The notes under the pieces: model-generated
What the model was told of the DNA's origin: nothing
Database searches by the model: none
What the model saw: only the letters and a program-made list of their open reading frames with translations
Translations under genes and position numbers: made by a program
Source of the DNA: an uncultured Verrucomicrobiae bacterium
GTDB lineage: Bacteria > Verrucomicrobiota > Verrucomicrobiia > Chthoniobacterales > Xiphinematobacteraceae
DNA: 64,000 nt
Assembly: GCA_963706715.1 (NCBI GenBank)
Contig: CAVPNI010000001.1
Location: forward strand, 320,001 to 384,000
Direction of reading: 5' to 3'
In this document: piece by piece, positions 43,321 through 43,502 of the stretch
Layout: the number at the start of each line of letters is the position of its first letter
Numbering within the stretch: the first letter of the stretch is position 1

Positions 43321-43502
43321 GTAAGGTGTGCTCAGGCCAAAGCTGCCGGTCCGTTGACATATTGTAGACAAATCTACCCAGCGGGAAACTTTGCGTTCTC
43401 CAAAAAATACGTGTGCAGCGGACCGGAGCCAATCTACGATGCGGGCTTTTTACGCTCCATAGAAACGCCGGCCATTTTACAGCTTGACCTGAGCAACCTT
43501 AC
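43321..43502 (-). ncRNA. Putative IS110 bridge RNA
   Basis: Enclosing stem 43321-45/43480-502; two loops each reading tgg...ccg-NNNN-gtag-att on the minus strand, whose sequences match the IS junctions. Confidence 0.75.

What the first reader, a model, noticed from the sequence alone, without database searches (positions are those of the whole stretch)
43321..43502. IS110 bridge-RNA candidate whose two loops match this element's own donor and target junctions
Seen: upstream of the intact IS110 recombinase lies a ~182-nt closed structure with two homologous loops. On the minus strand they read gcgtttcta-tgg..ccg-catcgtag-att and cgtattttt-tgg..ccg-ctgggtag-att. On the + strand, ctaccca (43374-80) equals the element end at 41973-79, and ctacga (43434-39) equals the flank at 43549-54. 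Established: IS621-type IS110 elements encode a bridge RNA with target- and donor-binding loops of this layout. Inference: this is a programmable RNA-guided recombinase with a core inside CTAC (CT or TA). Its guides read the junctions in the opposite orientation to the IS621 arrangement, and the element also has 11-bp sub-terminal inverted repeats.
Basis: partly seen in the sequence, partly recalled or inferred. Interest (0 to 1): 0.75.

Follow-up and report, generated by a model that had tools for sequence, protein, structure and literature searches.

The report
Bridge RNA reading a folded-back donor
This jumping gene very probably carries a two-loop guide RNA of the known IS110 'bridge' kind, but one of its four guides matches a spot that lines up only if the element's own DNA strand folds back on itself, which points to an untested variant in which the recombinase recognises its donor as a folded strand.

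Summary
The RNA is real and bridge-like. It forms two loops with covarying stems and lies upstream of an intact DEDD/Ser IS110 recombinase present in 11 copies. The core is CT on the non-coding strand, mirrored relative to IS621. The right guides track element ends and targets in homologs (88 of 105, 88 of 101), and the handshake signature is present. The left target guide matches 0-2 of 6 bases in all 11 copies. The left donor guide does not match next to the core. It matches 43521-43529, 20 nt inside the left end, on the same strand as the right donor site, beyond a DNA hairpin. That register recurs in homologs (z 8.2; replication z 6.9; 15 vs 3 independent pairs). It is the position opposite the core if the strand folds into a subterminal-repeat stem, a bubble and a hairpin. 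Best reading (0.7): a bridge recombinase with a fold-back donor. I did not find this in seven literature searches. There are no RNA or activity data.

The parts
41967..41972 (+). Left target arm of this insertion (host flank); 0 of 6 strict matches to the left target guide
41973..41974 (+). Core CT at the element's right end (AG on the coding strand)
   Evidence: independent contig ends at 41973
41975..41979 (+). Right donor site, complementary to the right donor guide; overlaps the right subterminal repeat
41977..41987 (+). Right subterminal inverted repeat (11 bp)
   Evidence: I5; a 6-7 of 7 inverted copy in 71 of 74 homologous loci with both ends
41993..43300 (-). IS110 recombinase, 435 aa; D15/E58/D95/D98 and S329; about 110 aa longer than IS621, mostly a helical insertion in the coiled coil and a C-terminal helix
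   Evidence: Pfam PF01548+PF02371; invariant residues; AF2 pLDDT 91; Foldseek 8wt6 E 4e-10, TM 0.71
43321..43502 (-). Predicted bridge RNA; conserved two-loop core about 43473-43346
   Evidence: expression not shown
43460..43468 (-). Left target guide (9 nt); canonical register, weakly used
43434..43441 (-). Right target guide; 6 nt including the core match all 11 targets
43432..43433 (-). Handshake guide of the target loop
43403..43411 (-). Left donor guide (9 nt); 8 of 9 identical to 43529-43521 on the coding strand
43374..43381 (-). Right donor guide; 7 nt including the core match the right end
43372..43373 (-). Handshake guide of the donor loop
43508..43518 (+). Left subterminal inverted repeat (11 bp), 30 nt from the core
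43521..43529 (+). Displaced left-donor site: proposed surrogate 'bottom strand' in the folded junction
43530..43542 (.). DNA hairpin (5-bp stem, 3-nt loop), co-axial within 1 nt with the subterminal-repeat stem
43543..43548 (+). 6-nt spacer between hairpin and core; unpaired in the folded junction; carries the handshake bases
43549..43550 (+). Core CT at the element's left end
43551..43558 (+). Right target arm: unit of a host 7-bp repeat family; first 4 nt read by the right target guide, next 4 nt resemble the element's own subterminal arm
43251..43450 (-). 200-nt stretch (most of the RNA and the start of the ORF) missing from 6 of the 11 copies elsewhere in the genome

Best explanation
An IS110-family bridge recombinase whose 'top' strand is the non-coding strand and whose donor is recognised as a strand folded back on itself. 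(1, inferred) The left end is transcribed into a two-loop RNA bound by recombinase dimers. (2, sequence and covariation) The right guides pair with CT plus 4-5 nt on the non-coding strand of target and donor. The handshake bases pair with the non-cognate partner, as in IS621. (3, covariation shown, folding inferred) At the circle junction the non-coding strand folds into an 11-bp stem of the two subterminal repeats, a mismatched bubble that holds the CT core, and a small capping hairpin. This puts 43521-43529 opposite the core plus 6 nt, where the left donor guide pairs with it in place of a true bottom strand. The substrate could be a single-stranded circle or a cruciform extruded from a duplex circle. 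(4, inferred) Top strands are cut by Ser329 and exchanged. A canonical second exchange is unlikely because the donor has no true bottom strand there, so host replication or repair would finish the insertion. (5, sequence) In this host the target is a 7-bp repeat. It is chosen by the right target guide plus 4 bases that mimic the element's subterminal arm, probably read by the protein, with little use of the left target guide.
For: Anchor: the left subterminal repeat, located from the right-end sequence. The left donor guide matches same-sense sequence at a gap of 3 nt: 4.8 vs 2.6 of 9 in 27 genome loci (z 8.2), and 5.0 vs 3.2 in 20 further loci with guides unseen in the first set (z 6.9). No other gap or strand comes close. 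In 23 tree-independent pairs, own beats cross in 15, loses in 3 and ties in 5 (p 0.0075). Positions changed in both guide and DNA agree 19 times and disagree once. The displaced site beats the canonical site in 40 of 46 loci (mean 6.0 vs 3.5 of 9). Independently of the guide match, bases pair in the repeat register at -14..-6 and +6..+12 and are at chance at -4..+5. The longest left-end stem is co-axial within 1 nt in 27 of 48 loci, against 11% in shuffles. The gap-3 site lies opposite offsets -3..+5, the register the left target guide uses on an ordinary target (z 5.5, n 32). Handshake: target-loop base 1 equals the donor base in 58% vs 28% expected, donor-loop base 1 equals the target base in 50% vs 23%, and the cognate donor pair is avoided (2% vs 27%; n 62). 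Left guides rarely carry CT at the core-facing positions (27 of 111 target guides, at most 2 of 80 donor guides). Single-strand copy-out and top-strand integration are reported for IS621 and CazIS110-1.
Against: No transcript or activity data. In ISPpu9, whose published left end has the same layout by eye, mutating the left-end palindrome did not stop circle formation in end-point PCR; the authors leave a role in integration open. The wobble-direction test for RNA:DNA pairing was inconclusive (18 vs 12, p 0.36). The match is weak or absent in some lineages: 7 of 48 loci are under 5 of 9, and in 4 of 46 the canonical site scored higher. The hairpin alone is significant in only 17 of 48. Control registers also lean towards own guides (canonical 13 vs 7, gap 6 11 vs 3), so part of the signal is shared base composition. 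42 of 167 loci had no confident RNA parse, and ends were mostly located through the right guides. This element itself has a gap of 4, not 3. CazIS110-1 preferred a duplex donor about 20-fold for one junction.
Confidence: 0.7

Rival explanations
1. The left donor guide does pair with 43521-43529, but as a separate linear site (for example bound by a second donor-loop dimer, or only in the excision synapse). The hairpin serves something else, such as a terminator or a protein landmark.
For: It explains the covariation equally well. The hairpin scores as terminator-like in this element. The ISPpu9 palindrome mutant still circularised. Donor-loop/donor-loop synapses exist in IS621 and ISCro4.
Against: It does not predict the hairpin's co-axial position (27 of 48 vs 11%), nor that the site falls opposite the register used by the left target guide. 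The 9 nt after the hairpin are T-rich in only 3 of 48 loci.
Confidence: 0.14
2. Half-match element: only the right guides and protein contacts to the subterminal repeats matter, and the left-end match is a relic of local duplication or conversion.
For: Half-match recombination is reported for IS621. The left target guide is unmatched in 8 of 11 insertions here even with wobble. The wobble test was inconclusive.
Against: Concordant changes 19 vs 1 in independent pairs at one fixed register, in loci from several phyla, are hard to keep without selection.
Confidence: 0.09
3. The structure is mainly a 5' leader that controls recombinase translation, as first described for ISPpu9, and is not a guide.
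For: It ends 21 nt before the start codon. The ISPpu9 leader represses translation and is opened by an antisense RNA (PMC8450116).
Against: The variable loop bases track element ends and targets (88 of 105 and 88 of 101) and show the handshake pattern. In one relative a target-loop-like segment lies downstream of the ORF (by eye). A leader role can coexist with guiding.
Confidence: 0.04

Closest known systems
IS621 and ISCro4/IS622 bridge recombinases (PMC11208160, PMC11208158: passages read; PDB 8wt6, 9t56)
   Same: RuvC-DEDD, coiled-coil and Tnp-Ser fold; RNA in the left end with target and donor loops; right guides pair with the top strand including a CT core; handshake bases.
   Different: The top strand is the non-coding strand. 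The left donor guide does not read the bottom strand next to the core but a same-strand site 20 nt away. The subterminal repeats are 11 bp rather than 2-3 bp, and asymmetric. The left guides rarely cover the core. The protein is 435 aa vs 326 aa, at 17-18% identity in the structural alignment.
ISPpu9 of Pseudomonas putida (PMC12288879: sections 17 and 18, passages, supplement parts 1-2 of 3; preprint 10.1101/2025.01.17.633520: parts 1 and 3-6 of 7; PMC8450116: passages)
   Same: AG at both ends; left 'A box' with a palindrome. Read by eye from Table S2 it has AG, 7 nt, a 5-bp hairpin and an inverted copy of the right-end arm 34 nt in, within the 29-40 range found here. Repeat-family targets; non-autonomous derivatives. 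The representative of the ISPpu9 protein cluster in the Durrant supplement shows the same motifs by eye.
   Different: Those papers describe no subterminal repeats, no guide assignment and no fold-back. The preprint reports three leader hexamers matching the ends whose mutation impaired circles, but I could not see the figure. I did not align the ISPpu9 protein or RNA, so shared clade membership is likely but untested.
ISPpu10 target stem-loop (10.64898/2026.03.19.712850: abstract and discussion read)
   Same: A DNA secondary structure adds to RNA-DNA pairing in an IS110 element.
   Different: There the stem-loop is in the target's 5' extension and gates specificity. Here it is in the donor and supplies the strand that a guide pairs with.
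IS1111 group / seekRNA elements (PMC11187229: passages read)
   Same: Subterminal inverted repeats of 7-17 bp; the paper notes a few with an upstream non-coding region.
   Different: They typically have downstream RNA, 330-350 aa proteins and repeats close to both ends. Here the RNA is upstream, the protein is 435 aa and the left repeat is 30 nt in.
Integron attC sites and IS200/IS605 ends (recalled, not checked in a call)
   Same: A recombinase recognises a folded single strand.
   Different: Those are tyrosine or HUH enzymes with protein or DNA-DNA read-out and no RNA guide.

Membership tests
IS110 family bridge recombinases | N-terminal DEDD RuvC-like domain (PF01548) and C-terminal PF02371 domain with catalytic Ser | tested here: met
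   (D15, E58, D95, D98 in 70 of 70; position 329 Ser in 61, Thr in 9)
IS110 family bridge recombinases | Short core repeated at both ends of the inserted element | tested here: met
   11 of 11 copies; narrowed to AG/CT with homologs
IS110 family bridge recombinases | Structured non-coding RNA with two internal loops in an element end | tested here: met
   18 of 30 consensus pairs with compensatory change, 0 of 500 shuffles as high, 33 sequences
IS110 family bridge recombinases | RNA is expressed and binds the recombinase; circles form; activity is reprogrammable | not testable with these tools
   no RNA holder listed; no joints in the contigs laid
IS621-type guide layout | Right guides pair with the top strand of target and donor including the core | tested here: met
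   88 of 105 and 88 of 101 loci; the base beyond the anchor matches in 86% and 97%; top strand is the non-coding strand
IS621-type guide layout | Left target guide pairs with the bottom strand next to the core | tested here: inconclusive
   register present in homologs (z 5.5) but weak (0.42-0.49 vs 0.24-0.29 at the three nearest bases, n 76); 0-2 of 6 in this element's 11 sites
IS621-type guide layout | Left donor guide pairs with the bottom strand next to the core | tested here: not met
   canonical site mean 3.5 of 9, displaced site 6.0 of 9; displaced site better in 40 of 46
IS621-type guide layout | Handshake guides match the non-cognate substrate | tested here: met
   (clade level; this element's own handshake match is partial)
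IS621-type guide layout | Strong hybrid promoter across the circle junction | tested here: inconclusive
   best junction-spanning consensus match 8 of 12; none in the linear end
IS1111 group | 7-17 bp subterminal inverted repeats | tested here: met
   11 bp; 71 of 74 homologous loci
IS1111 group | Long non-coding region downstream and a 330-350 aa transposase | tested here: not met
   upstream end about 250 bp, downstream end about 20 bp, 435 aa (criteria)

The most novel reading that the evidence does not exclude
A widespread clade of about 430-450 aa IS110 recombinases, probably including ISPpu9, has rebuilt its donor as a self-folding strand: subterminal repeats, a pre-opened bubble and a hairpin. 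An RNA guide pairs with a surrogate bottom strand, and the element is committed to single-strand, top-strand-only transposition. It would be an RNA-guided counterpart of attC-type recognition.
Probability: 0.5. Interest if true: 0.85.

Novelty: new variant of a known kind. Interest (0 to 1): 0.68.

Why it matters
Whether IS110 elements move by double-strand exchange or by single-strand copy-out is currently disputed (PMC11208158 and PMC13626964 against the preprints). A clade whose donor can be read by all its guides only when one strand folds back would be natural evidence for the single-strand route, and it gives a clean mutation-and-compensation test. It would also explain the conserved but unexplained left-end palindrome of ISPpu9. 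In practice, ortholog screens and covariation pipelines that rebuild the donor as core-adjacent duplex would mis-assign the left donor guide in this clade. Such enzymes might accept folded single-stranded cargo.

Tried and rejected
Core TA, or an inversion scar that would restore a canonical junction: rejected, because all 11 copies have the same left end and homologs keep the same displaced layout. A 7-bp target duplication: rejected; the apparent repeat comes from the host heptamer arrays, and the two sides differ in several copies. The left target guide reading a displaced same-strand site in the flank: no peak; only 4 of 53 targets have an inverted arm copy nearby, and none of these favours the displaced site. 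Terminator as the general role of the hairpin: rejected (3 of 48 T-rich). Wobble-direction test: inconclusive. Rfam: no meaningful hit. PDB by single sequence: none; the profile found IS621 and ISCro4. Sequencing runs: no RNA holder listed; four DNA runs laid gave partial cover and no joints. The first RNA-parsing script matched nothing because of a length error and was corrected. L026 was dropped because its anchor fell inside the RNA. 4 of the 36 listed homologs were left out of the RNA alignment, and row L031 is misaligned in it. A search for the ISPpu9 leader sequence in a supplement found nothing usable. Literature searches, and the sections read, showed no fold-back donor. Figures, bioRxiv supplements (including the cluster covariation plots of 10.64898/2026.10.21.760802) and subscription journals were not visible and could contain it.

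Full report
Verdict. The region is very probably a bridge RNA of an intact IS110 element. Only two of the four guides match where the IS621 model puts them. The fourth points to a donor that folds back on itself, which is the part worth following up.

The element. The ORF 43300-41993 encodes 435 aa with PF01548 and PF02371. D15, E58, D95 and D98 are invariant in 70 aligned sequences, and position 329 is Ser in 61 and Thr in 9. The AlphaFold model (pLDDT 91) matches IS621 and ISCro4 (E 4e-10, TM 0.71 over the target). The genome holds 11 copies with the same ends. Five are full length with 0-1 mismatches. Six lack element bases 102-301, which is most of the RNA and the start of the ORF. The four of these that I compared share three substitutions, and each sits at its own site. 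I infer one deletion followed by movement in trans. The cores are CT at 41973-74 and 43549-50 on the + strand, which is AG on the coding strand.

The RNA. The minus strand folds at z -6.5. A pattern for the two-loop scaffold parsed 125 of 167 loci: 80 from genomes, 80 from metagenomes, 6 from a phylum search and the window. The other 42 were not parsed confidently, and the pattern required AG at the end of the right guides. The consensus fold of 33 close sequences has two internal loops with all four guides unpaired. 18 of 30 pairs show compensatory change, above all 500 shuffles and all slid controls.

Right guides and handshake. The last 6 nt of the right target guide occur in the left flank window in 47 of 60 and 41 of 45 loci, against 1.5 and 1.4 expected with foreign guides. 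The right donor guide occurs at the right end in 46 of 55 and 42 of 46 loci, against 2.4 and 1.8 expected. These loci are not all independent. The next base, not used for anchoring, matches in 86% (31% expected) and 97% (71% expected) of 64 loci. The base after AG in each loop matches the non-cognate DNA, and the cognate donor pair is avoided. This is the handshake pattern described for IS621. Together these results fix the core as CT and the top strand as the non-coding strand.

Target. All 11 insertions have T-purine-GTTCGT before the AG on the coding strand and lie in a host family of 7-bp tandem repeats. The guide explains 6 of these bases. Its next base mismatches in 11 of 11, although 273 sites with that base matched exist. 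The four bases beyond resemble the element's own subterminal arm. They precede 89 of 291 empty intergenic sites but 11 of 11 used sites (about 2e-6 if independent). Homologs show a milder form of the same resemblance. I infer protein read-out. The left target guide uses the canonical register in homologs (z 5.5) but weakly. Here it matches 0-2 of 6 strictly; with wobble it matches 4-5 of 6 in 3 copies and 0-1 in 8.

Left donor guide. IS621's left donor guide pairs with the bottom strand next to the core. Here that position matches 2-3 of 9, while 43521-43529 matches 8 of 9 in the same sense as the right donor site. I anchored homologs on the left subterminal repeat, located from the right-end sequence. 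A single peak appeared at a gap of 3 nt, same sense. It was z 8.0 in 23 genome loci and z 8.2 in 27 after re-parsing. It was z 6.9 in 20 further loci with unseen guides. Permutation overstates significance among kin, so I also took 23 non-overlapping sister pairs from a tree. Own beat cross 15 to 3 with 5 ties, and joint changes were concordant 19 to 1. With the best of gaps 2-4, p was 0.0075; four control windows gave p 0.27-0.65. Controls lean slightly positive too. The displaced site beat the canonical site in 40 of 46 loci and lost in 4. A 40%-identical multi-copy element whose ends were read from its copies shows the same layout by eye (G290).

Geometry. The usual left end is AG, about 6 nt, a hairpin, the 9-nt site, 2-4 nt and the repeat. 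If the two repeats pair, positions -14..-6 and +6..+12 pair above chance and -4..+5 do not (-13..-7 are the anchor itself). The longest stem shares the axis within 1 nt in 27 of 48 loci, against 11% in shuffles. This element's junction folds that way at -12.3 kcal/mol. In that fold the gap-3 site lies opposite offsets -3..+5, the register the left target guide uses on an ordinary duplex. The folded strand therefore imitates a pre-opened donor duplex.

Mechanism and doubts. Shown: covariation and geometry. Inferred: folding in vivo, a single-stranded or cruciform substrate, and top-strand-only exchange. Two preprints report single-strand copy-out for IS621 and CazIS110-1 (named sections read). 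Against: the ISPpu9 palindrome mutant still made circles; the wobble test was inconclusive; some lineages lack the match; and there are no expression data. ISPpu9's loss of correct circles when the bases just after AG were mutated fits handshake bases and does not decide between the models.

Novelty. Bridge RNAs, AG ends, repeat targeting and half-matches are published. Earlier notes of this scan had the mirrored core and the heptamer target. I found no fold-back donor in seven literature searches or in the scan's notes. Figures, bioRxiv supplements and subscription journals were out of view. Rating: new variant of a known kind, interest 0.68.

Noticed in passing
G000 genome-wide (e.g. window 43551-43558): A family of degenerate 7-bp tandem repeats, often as inverted arrays 100-200 bp apart; 775 matches to the core unit. 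It is the target of this element.
   Followed up: partly
G000:C1:147884-150852: A deletion copy and a full copy lie in tandem, seven bases apart, in one heptamer array.
   Followed up: partly
G000:C4:373050-375808 and G000:C1:781271-782627: Two deletion copies carry, at the same point, a 1648-bp or about 246-bp insertion of another high-copy mobile or repeat element with an open frame of about 460 aa; not identified.
   Followed up: partly
L186, L193, L196, L199 (G139): A 39%-identical relative keeps the AG-spacer-hairpin left end, but its target-loop-like segment lies downstream of the ORF, so the RNA seems to have changed ends within this clade (by eye).
   Followed up: no
L201:340-530 and 1915-1935: A Pseudomonas plasmid relative appears to use an AA core (both right guides end in AA) and sits inside what looks like another insertion sequence; it has the same displaced donor site by eye.
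   Followed up: no
L029, L039, L043: Relatives whose right target guide matches a donor-like right end and which sit in tandem behind a sister element.
   Followed up: no
PMC12288879 supplement Table S1: Primers for the ISPpu9 small RNA Ssr9 show the same loop scaffold motifs as this RNA, with an 8-nt word ending in AG that matches the element's right end; Ssr9 may itself be a bridge-RNA-like copy.
   Followed up: no
window 43654-44871: Two adjacent genes with glycosyl transferase family 34 hits next to the left end; the pyruvate dehydrogenase-like operon ends at 41859 on the other side.
   Followed up: no
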